Virus record (IMG/VR): IMGVR_UViG_3300012995_000005
Span: 7,655-71,654 of that record
Strand: one strand, 5' to 3'
DNA: 64,000 nucleotides
DNA from: a virus
The notes under the pieces are model-generated. The model searched no databases and was not told the DNA's origin. It worked only from the letters and a program-made list of their open reading frames with translations. Below are positions 16,863 through 21,195 of the stretch, piece by piece; position 1 is the stretch's first letter, and every line of letters begins with the position of its first letter. A program made the translations under genes and the position numbers.

Positions 16863-17594
16863 TTACAGACCGCGTTTTTTCCGCACTTTCAGCGATTTCC
16901 GGCGAGAGATATTTGCCGCTGCCGTGTGAGATTTGCGTTGCGCCTTTTTGATGGAAGCACGCTGCAATGCAGTAATGCGCTTCGGGCGAGGGCGCTTACG
17001 AATCAGTTTCACCTCTCCATTGCGGACAACTTTTTTGTTCGCCTCCAACATTGCGTCATCATCGCTATCCCCAGAGACGCCATAGATTGCGATAGCTTCA
17101 TCGTCGTCTTCATTTGCCGCTGAAATTGCATCCGCAACGGCAATTGCCGCTTCGTCATCTTCTTCATCGATCATTTGAGTGACAGAATCTTGATCGGCAC
17201 CCAACGAAACCGCAGCTTCAGCCAGGATTGACAGGACGCGGTTGTACTCATCCGTTTGGGCATCAGTGATTTCATCGTCATCTTCGTCGTCGCTAATGCC
17301 GGCCATAACCATCGCGATACCGTCAATGTCTTCACTGGTCGGGTTAGATGAACGCGCCCAATCCAGCAAGAATGAAGCCGCTACAGAACGCTCATCCTGA
17401 CGCGACCGTTTTGATACAGCCTCGAAAATGGCATCTGAGAGCGCCTTCTTGCCTTTTTCGGTGCCAGGCTGAGCCTTGCCCTTATTCGACTCCAGCAGAG
17501 CGTCAGGAGCCGCTACGGACGCTGTAAGGCCAAATGCAGCCTCTAGCAATGGGTTAACTTTGTTTTGTTTGAAAATATCCACTTTTAGCTCCAT
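16863..17594 (-). CDS. P1 gp21-like virion protein (acidic core, basic C-terminus)
   Basis: KKVVRNGEVKLIRKR C-terminus; start at MELKVD overlapping the sheath stop. Confidence 0.6.
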   Translation of the reverse strand: MELKVDIFKQNKVNPLLEAAFGLTASVAAPDALLESNKGKAQPGTEKGKKALSDAIFEAVSKRSRQDERSVAASFLLDWARSSNPTSEDIDGIAMVMAGISDDEDDDEITDAQTDEYNRVLSILAEAAVSLGADQDSVTQMIDEEDDEAAIAVADAISAANEDDDEAIAIYGVSGDSDDDAMLEANKKVVRNGEVKLIRKRPRPKRITALQRASIKKAQRKSHTAAANISRRKSLKVRKKRGL

Positions 17595-19174
17595 TAACGC
17601 AGTAAAACAGGCACGCCGATAATTCGGCGGGAAACACCCGTCACACACACTTCCCAACGCACTTCCCAGCTATCGAAACCGGTATTAGTTACAGTCACGA
17701 TATAAGGCGCGTCACCCTGGCTGGCATCGCGCGGCTTAACCAATGCATCTGCCGCCACATAACGATCGAGTAATCGAGGAATACCCTTTTCCAGGCCTTC
17801 ACGAGTTAAGCCATCAGGTTCATGTTTAAGTGCCGAGGCGAGGGAGTAGTAGTTGCGAGCGATAGAGTTCATAACGGAAATAACGTGTTGATACTTCTTG
17901 TAGTTATTTTCCATACAGGTGGTCAGCGCATCATCAATGACGATCGCACCATTCGAACTGGTCACAACGTTGAGGTGTGCTGTTGCAAAGACTTCTCGGT
18001 CAATGGTTGCGGCAGCAGGTAACGGCTGGATGTTTTGACGATTGACGACGCCACGTGAGCTTCCTGCTGGAGAGTAATGCCAGCCGCCAACATCAGGCAC
18101 TAGAGCAACCCCCTTGGCCTTCGCCGTGAATGCATCACCAGACAAACCGAAGACAACATTCGATTGGCCTAAGGGGTCACGACAGGAGAACGGGAAGTAG
18201 TACGCTGTGACGTTTTCATTGCCAGCCAGGCCAAGTCCAGCTAGTTGCTCCAGCGCCTTATCAGCCGCCAAGCGAGGGTCAACATCAGCGAACATATCAA
18301 CACGAACCGCCTTTGCTAATTCGGCAAGTTTTGCGATAGCTGTTGCATCGTAAGTGCCTAAAGTCAGGATCGCGGTATACTCCACCAGCGAGCCGTCCAG
18401 AACAGCAATTGAGCTAGCGTAATCTTTTGCCGCCAGCTTCTTGTAATCACCATCCGAACCACCAACAAACGCTTGGTTAGTGATGCCAGCAAAAGACGCG
18501 GGCAACACCACGGTATCCGAGATCAGAGCACGTAAGCGTGAGCCGTTACGTTCGAGCACATCTGGAATGAACGCAGAAAGCCCCATGTCGTCGACAACAT
18601 CGGAATTCAGCGAAACCTCGTAATTCTCTAGCGTGCTCTCAGCACCTAACGAATCAGTAGCGACCAGCTTCAGCTTGAAAATCCCAGGTTTGTCTTTGGC
18701 CGGTTCGAAGCTCAGTTTGCGATTTGTAGATTTATCGCCGTCTTCCACATAGAACGTAATTGCGGTCTTGGCCGGCAAAGTGATATCAGCGCCAAACGCT
18801 GTTGTGCTGGTGGTTGCCTTCACTGTTGAAACAGCAGGTGTGCCCGCTGTCTCAATGGTGAGGTTGATAGCAGGAATCAGCATGCCAGGCAGTGGAATTC
18901 GCACGACATATCCGTCGCCACCAGATAAAGCTTGGTTTACGTGGCGTAGAGGCTCAAAGAATGCACCTTCTTGCGGTCTTGGCGCCTCACCTAGGATAGA
19001 CGTGACGTTATTTTTGGTAATTTTAAGTACGGTGTTCGGCTTACCTTTTCGCGAAATAACCAATCCCGCAAAAACTGATGCTCCGCCTGAAGTAGAGCCG
19101 ATTGTAGCTGATGCATCGATCGGTGCAGCCGCCACACCGGCTGCCGTACCTAAAGCAAAAGGAATCTTGTTCAT
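17594..19174 (-). CDS. Contractile tail sheath protein (P1 gp22-like)
   Basis: 526 aa; GGWHYSPAG and LKHEPDGLT motifs; next to the capsid gene. Confidence 0.85.
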   Translation of the reverse strand: MNKIPFALGTAAGVAAAPIDASATIGSTSGGASVFAGLVISRKGKPNTVLKITKNNVTSILGEAPRPQEGAFFEPLRHVNQALSGGDGYVVRIPLPGMLIPAINLTIETAGTPAVSTVKATTSTTAFGADITLPAKTAITFYVEDGDKSTNRKLSFEPAKDKPGIFKLKLVATDSLGAESTLENYEVSLNSDVVDDMGLSAFIPDVLERNGSRLRALISDTVVLPASFAGITNQAFVGGSDGDYKKLAAKDYASSIAVLDGSLVEYTAILTLGTYDATAIAKLAELAKAVRVDMFADVDPRLAADKALEQLAGLGLAGNENVTAYYFPFSCRDPLGQSNVVFGLSGDAFTAKAKGVALVPDVGGWHYSPAGSSRGVVNRQNIQPLPAAATIDREVFATAHLNVVTSSNGAIVIDDALTTCMENNYKKYQHVISVMNSIARNYYSLASALKHEPDGLTREGLEKGIPRLLDRYVAADALVKPRDASQGDAPYIVTVTNTGFDSWEVRWEVCVTGVSRRIIGVPVLLR

Positions 19175-19218: not shown

Positions 19219-21195
19219 TTAGCCGGCAGCCTTCACAGTGACCTTGGCAACGGCGGTTTTTGAACCGTCTTCACTGGTCATCGTGATATTGGCGACGCCC
19301 ACAGCTTTTGTTTCGCCGTCACCGCTCTGATCGATGACCGCTAAGGACTCATCGCTAGAAGTCAGCGTAAATGCTTTGTTAGAAGCGTTTTCTGGCAGAA
19401 CAGCGGGGGTCAGTTTGAATTTCTCACCAACGGTGACAGTCAGCGTTTTTGGCGTTAAGGAAACGGACTCTACGCCTACTGATGCTTCAGGTTTACCGCC
19501 GGCTTCCGGCTTTTTTTCGATGAACTTCCCAGTGCCAGGATCGATGGCGCCGACTTTTTCGTTAACGAGCGTGAGACGGGAGAAATAGTCTTCGCCATTG
19601 CGTGGGTGGATCTCATTAATGGCAGAACCCCACAGTGTTTGGCGATTAACCAGCGCCGTGCTCGTTGGATGGACAAATGGAATTGCTGGTACTGCATCGC
19701 CCGCGACCATGCCGGCCTCACCCAGGTTTTCACCACGTGAGTAGAAAAGAATGTCGCTCGATGAGAACGGATAGCCTTCTTTGTCGAACTGTTCACACAC
19801 TGGGTTCGGCACTTCATAGATACGGATCGAACCGAACAGCAAGCCGATGAAGTGCACATAGGATGTTTGCACATAGTTCGGCGCCAGTTGGAACATGCTT
19901 TCCGGCAGTGACTTGATATAGCCGGCTGCATCACCACCAGCAAAGCCACCACGGATGCCGTATTTTTTAGTACGGTCACGCATCTCCGTGGAAATTCGAT
20001 TCACAACCCCACGGAAGAGGGCACACCACGGTTCCCATTGCTGGCCTTCAGGCAGCGCTGTGTCGAATTTGTATTCGTGCACAGTATGGAACGCGAGCTT
20101 ACGCAGACGTTTCATATCCTGCTCATGAGAACACCATTGGGTCAGGCTGGTGAACTGCATCGATGCCAGGTTTAGGCCAAACTCACGTTGCAGATCCATC
20201 ATGGACTGCACGGTATGCTCGGCCGCCAGGATGTATTGCGATGGCTTCATAGTCCATTTACGCATCGCCTGGTTAATTACCGGGATCAGGTCAGGAGCAT
20301 TCTCAACGTCCAGCTCGGCCTGCATTGCAATGTGAGTGCCCGCTGGTGGAGCTTCGTCAAACTTCAGCTTCACGATGCCCTTTGTATAGTCGACTGTTCC
20401 AGTCACCTGGAAGCTATTGCCTTTGGCGTCTTTTTCGTTGAAGTTGATGTTGCTATCACCATCATCGTAGTGTTTACCGAGCCGGCGGTTCACGATGATA
20501 CGAACACGAGAACGACGAATTGGCATATTTCGGCCTTCGTAGTCGTAAATCGAGATGGTGAACTCTTTGGCAGTGCCGTCGACGCCACCCTTCAGCATGA
20601 AGATACGGCCCATCTGCGAGAATACGCCGGCGCTGAGGTGATCCATTTGCTCACCGCGCTCAAACGACCCCATCTTCACGCCTGCAACGTTGTAGACCTC
20701 ATAGAAGTCAGACTCATCGCGAGTAGCCGGCATGAAAGTGCACATATCGCTGGTTGCGGCGCCCAGGGCGGACGGCAAGATCATTGCCATGAAAATAGCT
20801 TGGCGCATTACACCTTCTGATGTACTCATGTCACTGGAAACTGATTCCAGCATTGCCGCGCCTTCACCGCTACGTTTAGCGGTTGGGGAAGATTCCAGGA
20901 TCAGGTTTTCACATGCATGTTGAGCATTTGCCAGCAGATCGGCTGGTGGATTACAGCCATTAATGCGGCGGTAATCAGCCACACTGGCCGCCCAAGCTGT
21001 AGAAATCTGGCGGACGGCCTTCGGGTCTACGCCTTCAAACATTGGATCTTTGGCTGCTGCCTGAGAAATGGCTTCCGCTTGCTCTTCAACGCTCATAGAG
21101 GCGTTGATAGGGGCATTGCTGGTAAACGCCAGCACTCGGCCAGCGCGACAATTTACGTCTCTCTGACGTTCATGAAATGCTTTGGTATCAGACAC
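19219..21195 (-). CDS. Major capsid protein (P1 gp23-like) with an in-frame C-terminal Ig-like (Big_2) domain
   Basis: LESVSSDMSTSEG and ALGAATSDMCTF capsid motifs; last ~85 aa VESVSLTPKTLTVTVGEKFKLTPAVLPENASNK is a typical Big_2 fold. Confidence 0.9.
   Translation of the reverse strand: MSDTKAFHERQRDVNCRAGRVLAFTSNAPINASMSVEEQAEAISQAAAKDPMFEGVDPKAVRQISTAWAASVADYRRINGCNPPADLLANAQHACENLILESSPTAKRSGEGAAMLESVSSDMSTSEGVMRQAIFMAMILPSALGAATSDMCTFMPATRDESDFYEVYNVAGVKMGSFERGEQMDHLSAGVFSQMGRIFMLKGGVDGTAKEFTISIYDYEGRNMPIRRSRVRIIVNRRLGKHYDDGDSNINFNEKDAKGNSFQVTGTVDYTKGIVKLKFDEAPPAGTHIAMQAELDVENAPDLIPVINQAMRKWTMKPSQYILAAEHTVQSMMDLQREFGLNLASMQFTSLTQWCSHEQDMKRLRKLAFHTVHEYKFDTALPEGQQWEPWCALFRGVVNRISTEMRDRTKKYGIRGGFAGGDAAGYIKSLPESMFQLAPNYVQTSYVHFIGLLFGSIRIYEVPNPVCEQFDKEGYPFSSSDILFYSRGENLGEAGMVAGDAVPAIPFVHPTSTALVNRQTLWGSAINEIHPRNGEDYFSRLTLVNEKVGAIDPGTGKFIEKKPEAGGKPEASVGVESVSLTPKTLTVTVGEKFKLTPAVLPENASNKAFTLTSSDESLAVIDQSGDGETKAVGVANITMTSEDGSKTAVAKVTVKAAG

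What the first reader, a model, noticed from the sequence alone, without database searches (positions are those of the whole stretch)
19219..19520. Ig domain fused in frame to the major capsid protein, with a dnaX-type -1 slippery site in the linker that would remove it
Seen: the 658-aa capsid ORF ends in a ~85-aa Big_2 domain. At the domain boundary the codons GAA AAA AAG (19518-19510) form an in-frame A_AAA_AAG heptamer. A -1 slip reads AAA AAA GCC GGA AGC CGG CGG TAA (stop at 19495-19493), giving a 567-aa Ig-less capsid protein, close to the length I recall for P1 gp23 (~565 aa). Known: A_AAA_AAG is the E. coli dnaX shift site, and phage Ig domains are usually added by frameshift. Inference: here the logic is inverted (frameshift removes the Ig), which would set the fraction of Ig-decorated capsomers. 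Only weak stimulators are visible (GGGAAG about 8 nt upstream, short hairpins downstream).
Basis: partly seen in the sequence, partly recalled or inferred. Interest (0 to 1): 0.75.

Follow-up and report, generated by a model that had tools for sequence, protein, structure and literature searches.

The report
Slip site between capsid and Ig domain
A Serratia P1/D6-like phage-plasmid fuses an antibody-like domain to its coat protein, and the ribosome slip site at the joint descends from a complete dnaX-style signal that relatives very probably use to make a coat protein without that domain, but here only the bare slip site is left, so little of the short form is expected.

Summary
The 658-aa ORF (21195-19219, minus strand) is a P1 gp23-type major capsid protein with a C-terminal Big_2 domain. 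GAA AAA AAG (19518-19510) is in frame, and a -1 slip gives a 567-aa product ending ...EKKAGSRR.

The site is not a chance one. In-frame capsid-Ig fusions of 58-66% identity (Erwinia, Pantoea, uncultured) carry A_AAA_AAG or G_GGA_AAG at the same joint. The amino acids in front of it differ. A -1 stop follows exactly one codon later, as TGA, TAG or TAA. In five of six of these lineages a GC-rich hairpin with compensatory changes lies 4-5 nt downstream.

The window's own lineage keeps only the heptamer. The local hairpin is gone, the -1 stop lies five codons further on, and the nearest outgroup (82%) has lost the heptamer but kept the Ig in frame. I therefore expect a low-level slip giving a minor Ig-less isoform; whether it still matters is open.

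D6-like relatives use the same heptamer the other way round, adding Ig strands. This scan has reported that several times; it has not reported the truncating version.

The parts
19219..21195 (-). Major capsid protein-Big_2 fusion gene (658 aa, GTG start). The frame-0 product carries the Ig-like domain.
   Evidence: ORF. 45% identity to P1 gp23 over residues 1-560. E 1.4e-163 to the solved P1 Gp23 chain 9ukm_A. Big_2 hit.
19510..19516 (-). Slippery heptamer A_AAA_AAG (codons E560 K561 K562 are GAA AAA AAG, 19518-19510), followed by CC.
   Evidence: It is the only in-frame X_XXW_WWZ in the ORF. It is kept in all 23 members of the 90% cluster and in loci with 3%, 17% and 38-40% synonymous difference.
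19493..19510 (-). Read-out in the -1 frame after the slip: GCC GGA AGC CGG CGG TAA. This gives the 567-aa Ig-less product ending EKKAGSRR, with the stop at 19495-19493.
   Evidence: The same tail is kept in L112-L114, where the stop is TGA instead of TAA because of a K-to-E change in frame 0.
19474..19509 (-). Flexible linker (residues 563-574) between the capsid core and the Ig domain.
   Evidence: AlphaFold2 pLDDT <50 at 563-571. Its sequence and length vary among relatives.
19240..19473 (-). Big_2 (bacterial Ig-like group 2) domain, residues 575-652.
   Evidence: Pfam PF02368, E 2.8e-14. The model shows an all-beta domain at 577-655 with pLDDT about 90.
19525..19530 (-). GGGAAG, a weak Shine-Dalgarno-like hexamer 8 nt upstream of the heptamer. 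It encodes Gly-Lys and is probably not a dedicated stimulator.
   Evidence: It is also present in the heptamer-less L003/L008 and variable in the D6 clade.
19495..19503 (-). 5' arm (GCCGGCGGU) of a candidate long-range stem that starts 6 nt after the heptamer. It is homologous to the GGC GGT 5' arm of the hairpin in the sister clade.
   Evidence: It appears in the MFE and centroid folds of the window and L002 and in the RNAalifold consensus. The folding energy is no better than shuffles (z -0.5 and -0.3), so this is only a candidate.
19426..19434 (-). 3' arm (ACCGUUGGU) of the candidate long-range stem. It lies in the Thr-Val-Gly codons of the Big_2 domain.
   Evidence: The pairing is disrupted in the heptamer-less L003 clade (sequence). 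Not statistically supported.
17594..19174 (-). Tail sheath gene (P1 gene 22 homologue) immediately downstream. Context only.
   Evidence: ORF. Synteny with P1 and D6 annotation.

Best explanation
The heptamer is a genuine, inherited -1 ribosomal frameshift site, but it is the stripped-down remnant of a complete cassette.

The ancestor of the capsid-Ig fusion clade carried a dnaX-like truncating cassette at the capsid/Ig joint. It consisted of X_XXA_AAG, a 4-5 nt spacer, a GC-rich hairpin, and a -1 stop one codon after the slip. Ribosomes that stay in frame make capsid-linker-Ig. Ribosomes whose two tRNAs slip back one base on the heptamer terminate almost at once and make a capsid protein without the Ig. 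Each of the roughly 775 subunits of a T=13 head is therefore either decorated or bare.

In the window's Serratia lineage the linker was shortened and the local hairpin lost. The heptamer remains, in the shift-prone ...AAG CC context, and the -1 stop now lies five codons downstream.

Shown: the anatomy, the homology of the site, and its conservation in relatives. Inferred: that slipping occurs; that in this phage it is low (about 1%, possibly a few %) and gives a minor 567-aa ...EKKAGSRR isoform; and that the isoform is dispensable. I rate the chance that selection still maintains the site here at about even.
For: 1. Family. The protein is a P1 gp23-type capsid protein fused to Big_2. The 12 in-frame fusions form one clade with 100% support. 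The window group and the heptamer-less group together are sister to L108, L106, L009, L107, L109 and L110.

2. Heptamer conservation despite changed amino acids:
- window: GAA AAA AAG
- L106: GCA AAA AAG
- L107: GTA AAA AAG
- L108: GTA AAA AAG
- L109, L009, L110: GTG GGA AAG
Given the amino acids and the genes' own codon usage, the probabilities are 0.17, 0.053, 0.048, 0.048 and 0.0036; GGA is 3% of Gly codons. The background is 4 in-frame X_XXA_AAG in 50,350 core codons.

3. A -1 stop exactly one codon after the slip in 8 of 9 heptamer-bearing sequence types. It appears as TGA, TAG or TAA under different frame-0 residue pairs: PE, SE, TD, PD, SS, LN.

4. A hairpin 4-5 nt downstream in L106, L108, L109, L009 and L110. 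For L109 the energy is -27.9 kcal/mol in a 60-nt fold, and z is -3.45 in the 100-nt fold. 92.7% of cells are paired, against 35-75% when the partners are slid, and 3 pairs show compensatory changes.

5. The two heptamers belong to the three most efficient motifs in E. coli (PMC4066793). [quoted passage not shown]

6. Within the window's own lineage the heptamer is kept in every member seen, up to 38-40% synonymous difference. The -1 stop is kept through a TAA/TGA change.

7. The slip codons sit exactly at the start of the disordered linker.
Against: - No local hairpin follows the heptamer in the window, L002 or L027. The only nearby stem is 4-5 bp, abuts the heptamer and is not kept in L002.
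- The candidate long-range stem folds no better than shuffles.
- The one-codon -1 stop is lost in the window's sub-lineage.
- The nearest outgroup (L003, L008, L111, 82% identity) has no heptamer at all but keeps the Ig in frame, so the Ig-less form is dispensable.
- Heptamers without stimulators gave only 2-10 times a 0.055% background in E. coli reporters.
- Conservation inside the window's own lineage is statistically weak. The chance that three two-fold codons stay unchanged at 40% synonymous difference is about 0.2. The 9-codon identical run that ends at the heptamer is only the joint fourth longest in the gene.
- No protein or reporter data exist.
Confidence: 0.65

Rival explanations
1. 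Fully programmed site in this phage. Unrecognised stimulators raise shifting to a substantial level (10% or more), so the phage actively sets a mixed population of Ig-bearing and bare capsid subunits. Candidates are the long-range stem that starts 6 nt after the heptamer, the CC spacer and the GGGAAG upstream.
For: The 8-9 bp stem (19503-19495 with 19434-19426) appears in the MFE and centroid folds of the window and L002 and in the three-sequence consensus, with an ideal 6-nt spacer. It is disrupted in the heptamer-less clade. A nine-codon run without any synonymous change ends at the heptamer. The -1 stop is kept through a TAA-to-TGA change. CC is the most shift-prone 3' context.
Against: Fold energies do not differ from shuffles (z -0.5 and -0.3). 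The 3' arm lies in conserved Thr-Val-Gly codons of the Ig domain, so the complementarity may be accidental. No compensatory change was seen. GGGAAG encodes Gly-Lys, is also present where the heptamer is lost, and sits at 8 nt rather than the 10 nt recalled for the dnaX Shine-Dalgarno-like element (the 10 nt is from my own knowledge).
Confidence: 0.2
2. There is no frameshifting anywhere in the family. The A-rich or GGGAAAG string and the following hairpin are conserved for another reason, such as a Lys-Lys processing site, a translational pause that helps the capsid core fold before the Ig domain, or chance.
For: No experimental product data exist. Lys-rich C-terminal tails are common in the wider family, for example KKSE, KKDS and TTK ends. 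A hairpin alone could act as a pause site.
Against: A protein-level constraint does not explain the wobble base of the preceding codon (E, A, V, V), the switch to the rare GGA Gly codon, or the AAA-then-AAG order. Nor does it explain a stop kept in a frame that is supposedly unused, as three different stop codons. The same heptamers head -1 ORFs under evident purifying selection in the D6 clade and in Rosenbergiella.
Confidence: 0.07
3. The short product arises from transcriptional slippage of RNA polymerase on the run of seven A's, not from ribosomal slippage.
For: The window has A7. Slippage on A runs is known in bacteria and phages (reviewed in PMC5009743).
Against: Three related lineages use GGGAAAG, which has no long homopolymer, in the same place with the same stop and hairpin. 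To my knowledge seven A's is short for efficient polymerase slippage. The strict AAA AAG order and the requirement that the heptamer be in frame fit tRNA re-pairing.
Confidence: 0.03

Closest known systems
E. coli dnaX tau/gamma -1 programmed frameshift
   Same: The heptamer is identical (A_AAA_AAG). The slip leads almost at once to a -1 stop, after one codon in dnaX and in the sister-clade capsid genes, so the shifted product is the shorter one and lacks C-terminal domains. A stem-loop lies a few nucleotides downstream (PMC5009743; PMC6787027).
   Different: The gene is a phage capsid gene, not a polymerase subunit. No convincing upstream Shine-Dalgarno stimulator is present. In the window the local stem-loop is missing and the -1 stop lies five codons away. 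dnaX shifts at 70-80%; the efficiency here is unknown and probably low.
Capsid-gene frameshifts that add a C-terminal Ig-like domain (T3 gene 10A/10B, Lactobacillus phage A2, Kuravirus/phiEco32-like GGGAAAG)
   Same: They also make two forms of the major capsid protein from one gene, with and without an Ig-like domain, by a -1 slip at the capsid/Ig joint. GGGAAAG is used by some of them (PMC9965538; PMC5009743).
   Different: The polarity is reversed. There, frame 0 stops and the slip adds the domain, giving a minor long form. Here, frame 0 carries the domain and the slip removes it.
Phage D6-type capsid frameshift feeding a split Ig domain
   Same: The capsid family is homologous (47.6-53% identity). 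The same GAA AAA AAG lies at the homologous codons and is invariant, while the adjacent stop codon varies among TGA, TAG and TAA.
   Different: In D6 frame 0 stops right after the heptamer, and the -1 frame adds about 35 residues that form only the first strands of a Big_2 domain. The rest of the domain is a separate small gene. The window has the whole domain in frame.
Phage lambda G/GT tail-chaperone frameshift
   Same: The G_GGA_AAG heptamer is the one used by the Erwinia and Pantoea members of the fusion clade (about 3.5% slippage for lambda and the GGGAAAG site of Kuravirus-like capsid genes are cited in PMC9965538; the lambda heptamer itself is from my own knowledge).
   Different: Lambda's slip extends the protein, and the gene is not a capsid gene.
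phi29 gp8 (major capsid protein with an in-frame BIG2 domain)
   Same: An HK97-fold capsid protein with a group-2 bacterial Ig-like domain fused in frame at its C-terminus (from my own knowledge; not checked here).
   Different: No recoding site is known at its joint. The capsid family is unrelated.

Membership tests
-1 programmed ribosomal frameshift cassette (dnaX type) | An in-frame X_XXY_YYZ heptamer that lets both tRNAs re-pair in the -1 frame | tested here: met
   A_AAA_AAG at 19516-19510 in frame 0. It is the only such heptamer in the ORF.
-1 programmed ribosomal frameshift cassette (dnaX type) | Heptamer conserved in diverged homologues beyond what the protein sequence requires | tested here: met
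   It is kept in five diverged lineages with different preceding residues. Codon-level probabilities are 0.17, 0.053, 0.048, 0.048 and 0.0036. The background is 4 per 50,350 codons. It was lost once, in L003/L008/L111.
-1 programmed ribosomal frameshift cassette (dnaX type) | A 3' stimulatory RNA structure about 4-9 nt after the heptamer | tested here: not met
   The window, L002 and L027 lack the local hairpin. A long-range stem is predicted but folds no better than shuffles. The feature is met in the sister clade: L106, L108, L109, L009 and L110.
-1 programmed ribosomal frameshift cassette (dnaX type) | A 5' Shine-Dalgarno-like stimulator about 10-14 nt upstream | tested here: inconclusive
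   GGGAAG lies 8 nt upstream and matches the anti-SD only weakly. It is coded by Gly-Lys and is also present where the heptamer is lost.
-1 programmed ribosomal frameshift cassette (dnaX type) | A defined -1 frame outcome (early stop giving a truncated product) | tested here: met
   In the window the stop lies five codons after the slip (19495-19493). In 8 of 9 heptamer-bearing sequence types it lies one codon after.
-1 programmed ribosomal frameshift cassette (dnaX type) | Two protein products observed, dependent on the heptamer | not testable with these tools
   No proteomic or reporter data were found.
-1 programmed ribosomal frameshift cassette (dnaX type) | Host decodes AAA and AAG with a single tRNA-Lys (UUU anticodon) | not testable with these tools
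   The genome held is only the 81-kb plasmid, and the window has no tRNA genes. This holds for E. coli and about half of known bacteria (PMC5009743) and, from my own knowledge, is expected for an enterobacterial host such as Serratia.
P1 gp23-type major capsid protein (HK97 fold with insertion domain) | Full-length sequence homology to P1 gp23, with synteny next to the tail sheath gene | tested here: met
   45.5% identity over residues 1-560 to P1 gp23. E 1.4e-163 to the solved chain 9ukm_A. The sheath gene follows, as in P1 and D6.
Big_2 (PF02368) bacterial Ig-like domain | Pfam profile match above the gathering threshold, and a beta-sandwich model | tested here: met
   53.3 bits against a cut-off of 22.8, covering profile positions 2-79 of 79. 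The model shows an all-beta domain at 577-655 with pLDDT about 90.

The most novel reading that the evidence does not exclude
P1/D6-like phage-plasmids carry one ancestral recoding module at the capsid C-terminus whose polarity has flipped between lineages. In D6-likes and Rosenbergiella the slip adds a tail (Ig strands or a low-complexity tail). In the Serratia, Erwinia and Pantoea fusion clade the same heptamer, with the stop displaced by two bases, removes a whole Ig domain in the manner of dnaX. This would tune how many of the roughly 775 capsid subunits are decorated. The window would be a natural 'stimulator-less' allele in which this tuning is turned almost fully towards decorated subunits.
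Probability: 0.45. Interest if true: 0.75.

Novelty: new variant of a known kind. Interest (0 to 1): 0.6.

Why it matters
Phage capsid genes are a classic place for frameshifts that add an Ig-like domain to a minority of subunits. I found no description of a capsid gene in which the domain is the default and the slip removes it, as in dnaX (the scan's earlier notes).

The clade offers a graded natural series:
- a full cassette (heptamer, hairpin, one-codon stop);
- the heptamer only (this window);
- no heptamer;
- in D6 relatives, the opposite polarity at the same codons.

Such a series makes two questions directly testable. One is how recoding signals are built, flipped and lost. The other is whether the density of Ig domains on a virion matters for assembly, stability or adhesion.

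There is also a practical point. Public records annotate these genes only as 'Ig-like domain-containing protein', with no capsid name and no slippage note.

Tried and rejected
- Megablast of the gene against the phage collection found nothing.
- A metagenome-contig scan with the fusion-clade alignment found no relative.
- The search of 50%-identity representatives was swamped by large multi-Big_2 proteins and added no new fusion lineage.
- The phage D6 genome paper (PMC5800970) is not held, so I could not check whether its authors noted a capsid frameshift.
- The host's tRNA-Lys set could not be checked, because the genome held is the plasmid alone and the window has no tRNA genes.
It is not kept in L002. 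I rejected it as a stimulator.
- GGGAAG as a Shine-Dalgarno stimulator: not rejected, but unsupported.
- I first read L108 as having re-created the heptamer four codons downstream. It keeps its distance to the hairpin, so a four-codon insertion upstream of the heptamer is the simpler reading.
- D6 (heptamer followed directly by TGATGG) and the fusions (heptamer, two bases, then TGATGG) look alike, which suggests that a two-base indel flipped the polarity. The reading frames across that motif differ and the D6-clade outer stem is not conserved, so I keep this as speculation only.
- Complex prediction was not used. The D6 split-Ig question is outside this finding and has already been reported by the scan.
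Full report
**What is there**

The window is part of an 81-kb P1/D6-like phage-plasmid. Its closest public relatives are Serratia plasmids, at 92% and 82% protein identity for this gene.

The ORF 21195..19219 on the minus strand encodes 658 residues.
- Residues 1-560 are 45% identical to the P1 major capsid protein gp23. They match the solved P1 Gp23 chain 9ukm_A at E 1.4e-163.
- Residues 575-652 are a Big_2 domain.
- The tail sheath gene follows, as in P1 and D6.

The sequence reads ...GGG AAG TTC ATC GAA AAA AAG CCG GAA GCC GGC GGT AAA.... A_AAA_AAG is therefore in frame at 19516-19510.

An AlphaFold2 model built on 39 homologues places the slip codons directly before a disordered linker (pLDDT <50 at 563-571). 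A confident beta domain follows at 577-655.

**Is it more than chance?**

The heptamer is the only in-frame X_XXW_WWZ heptamer in the gene. Across 95 distinct capsid-core sequences of the family, in-frame X_XXA_AAG occurs 4 times in 50,350 codons.

I collected relatives from the protein database, GTDB genomes, IMG/VR and assemblies. A tree of 77 capsid cores gave these results:
- All in-frame capsid-Ig fusions form one clade (100% SH-aLRT).
- One branch holds the window group (window, L002, L027) together with a heptamer-less group (L003, L008, L111).
- The other branch holds L108, L106, L009, L107, L109 and L110, at 58-66% identity to the window.

**The sister branch carries a complete cassette**

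The joint reads as follows in each lineage:

| Lineage | Codons at the joint |
|---|---|
| L106 | ATC GCA AAA AAG ACT GAT |
| L107 | TAC GTA AAA AAG TCT AGC |
| L108 | GAA GTA AAA AAG CTT AAC |
| L109 | TAC GTG GGA AAG ACT GAT |
| L009, L110 | GTG GGA AAG CCT GAT |

The residue before the slip codons differs (Glu, Ala or Val). The P-site residue is Lys or Gly. Yet the wobble base and the codon choice always produce A_AAA_AAG or G_GGA_AAG.

Given the amino acids and the genes' own codon usage, the probabilities are 0.17, 0.053, 0.048, 0.048 and 0.0036; GGA makes up only 3% of Gly codons.

In every one of these lineages, and in L002 and L027, the -1 frame hits a stop exactly one codon after the slip. 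The stop is TGA, TAG or TAA, under different frame-0 residue pairs.

Four to five nucleotides after the heptamer, L106, L108, L109, L009 and L110 have a GC-rich hairpin of 8-11 bp plus an inner stem.
- For L109 the energy is -27.9 kcal/mol in a 60-nt fold, and z is -3.45 in a 100-nt fold.
- On the five-sequence alignment 92.7% of cells pair, against 35-75% when the partners are slid.
- Three pairs carry compensatory changes.

Heptamer, short spacer, hairpin and a stop one codon after the slip is the anatomy of E. coli dnaX, where the shifted product is the shorter one (PMC5009743; PMC6787027). A_AAA_AAG and G_GGA_AAG are among the three most efficient motifs measured in E. coli (PMC4066793).

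No protein data exist.

**The window's own lineage**

The heptamer is present in all 23 members of the 90% cluster. It is also present in loci that differ from the window at 3%, 17% and 38-40% of synonymous sites.

The local hairpin is absent. The linker is shorter, and the 3' arm (ACC GCC) has no counterpart.

In the window's sub-lineage CCT became CCG. This destroyed the one-codon TGA. The next stop, five codons on, is kept as TAA or TGA.

The nearest outgroup reads GAG AAA ACC or GAG AAA CAA. It has no heptamer and no early stop, yet the Ig is still in frame. A capsid made only of Ig-bearing subunits is therefore viable in this group.

A long-range stem (19503-19495 with 19434-19426, 6-nt spacer) recurs in the folds of the window and L002. 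It folds no better than shuffles.

Without stimulators, heptamers gave only 2-10 times a 0.055% background in E. coli reporters. On the other hand, A_AAA_AAG is avoided in highly expressed genes, and a 3' CC is the most shift-prone context.

My reading is a real but weak slip site. It should yield a minor 567-aa isoform among the roughly 775 subunits of a T=13 head; the P1 capsid geometry is taken from PMC12810830. I rate the odds that selection still maintains it as about even.

**Wider family**

In phage D6 and its relatives the same GAA AAA AAG lies at the homologous codons. It is invariant while the adjacent frame-0 stop varies among TGA, TAG and TAA.
- The -1 frame encodes a conserved stretch of about 35 residues that resembles the first Big_2 strands.
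- A separate small gene encodes the remainder of the domain.
- Earlier notes of this scan describe this arrangement repeatedly. I confirmed it independently.

In L072 the heptamer sits after an acidic insert but again opens a -1 frame that encodes Ig strands. In L069 and L070 those strands are in frame.

In Rosenbergiella, G_GGA_AAG TGA followed by an 11-bp hairpin opens a 74-residue Ala/Gln/Asp/Lys-rich -1 tail. Other lineages carry a similar tail in frame.

P1, the Pantoea group and the Xenorhabdus group have no such module at the joint.

Recoding at this capsid C-terminus is thus a recurrent theme, with both polarities present.

**Comparison with known systems and novelty**

The mechanism belongs to a known kind, -1 frameshifting on X_XXA_AAG. 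Two-form capsid proteins with and without an Ig domain are also known: T3, A2 and the Kuravirus-like phages.

What is unusual is the polarity. The Ig domain is the default and the slip removes it, as in dnaX. I found no paper or earlier scan note that describes this. Public records call the gene only 'Ig-like domain-containing protein'.

I class it as a new variant of a known kind. The window itself is the reduced member of the series, which lowers its individual weight, while the series as a whole is attractive for experiments.

Noticed in passing
L001:4162-4597 (phage D6) and L031-L065 (D6-like viral contigs): The D6-type capsid gene ends in GAA AAA AAG followed by a stop. The -1 frame encodes about 35 conserved residues resembling the first strands of a Big_2 domain. 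A separate small gene encodes the remaining strands plus a second copy of the first strands. That gene's frame relative to the capsid gene varies (0 in L001, -2 in L061), so it is an independent gene. This scan has reported the arrangement several times.
   Followed up: partly
L014:4701-4930 and L063:4701-4930 (Rosenbergiella phage-plasmids): The capsid gene ends in G_GGA_AAG TGA, with an 11-bp hairpin 4 nt downstream. The -1 frame continues for 74 residues of Ala/Gln/Asp/Lys-rich low-complexity sequence up to the sheath gene. Other lineages (L073, P0015) carry a similar tail in frame.
   Followed up: partly
L069/L070 and L072 (IMG/VR contigs): These are variants of the split-Ig layout. In L069 and L070 the first Ig strands are fused in frame to the capsid protein, with no slip needed. 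In L072 the heptamer lies after an acidic insert (EEEKKSE stop) and the -1 frame again gives the Ig strands.
   Followed up: partly
L107:1849-1903: This member of the sister clade has A_AAA_AAG and a -1 TAG one codon later but no evident local hairpin. It sits among the G_GGA_AAG lineages in the tree, which implies a three-base switch between two slippery heptamers.
   Followed up: partly
L002:4193-4201 and L002:4472-4480: In the S. marcescens plasmid the linker string GCCGGCGGC is the exact reverse complement of GCCGCCGGC, the last codons of the same gene about 280 nt downstream. In the window the pairing would hold with two G-U pairs. This is probably a by-product of the Ala-Gly-Gly and Ala-Ala-Gly codons.
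   Followed up: no
window 19219-21195; records NZ_OW849140 and NZ_CP074146: RefSeq names this gene only 'Ig-like domain-containing protein'. Neither the capsid function nor any ribosomal slippage is annotated.
   Followed up: yes
window 20836-21195 (about the first 120 codons): In P1 the first 120 residues of gp23 are removed during maturation (PMC9024508). In the model of the window protein this N-terminal region is helical up to about residue 143, with a low-confidence stretch at 105-131. That is consistent with a scaffold-like delta domain.
   Followed up: no
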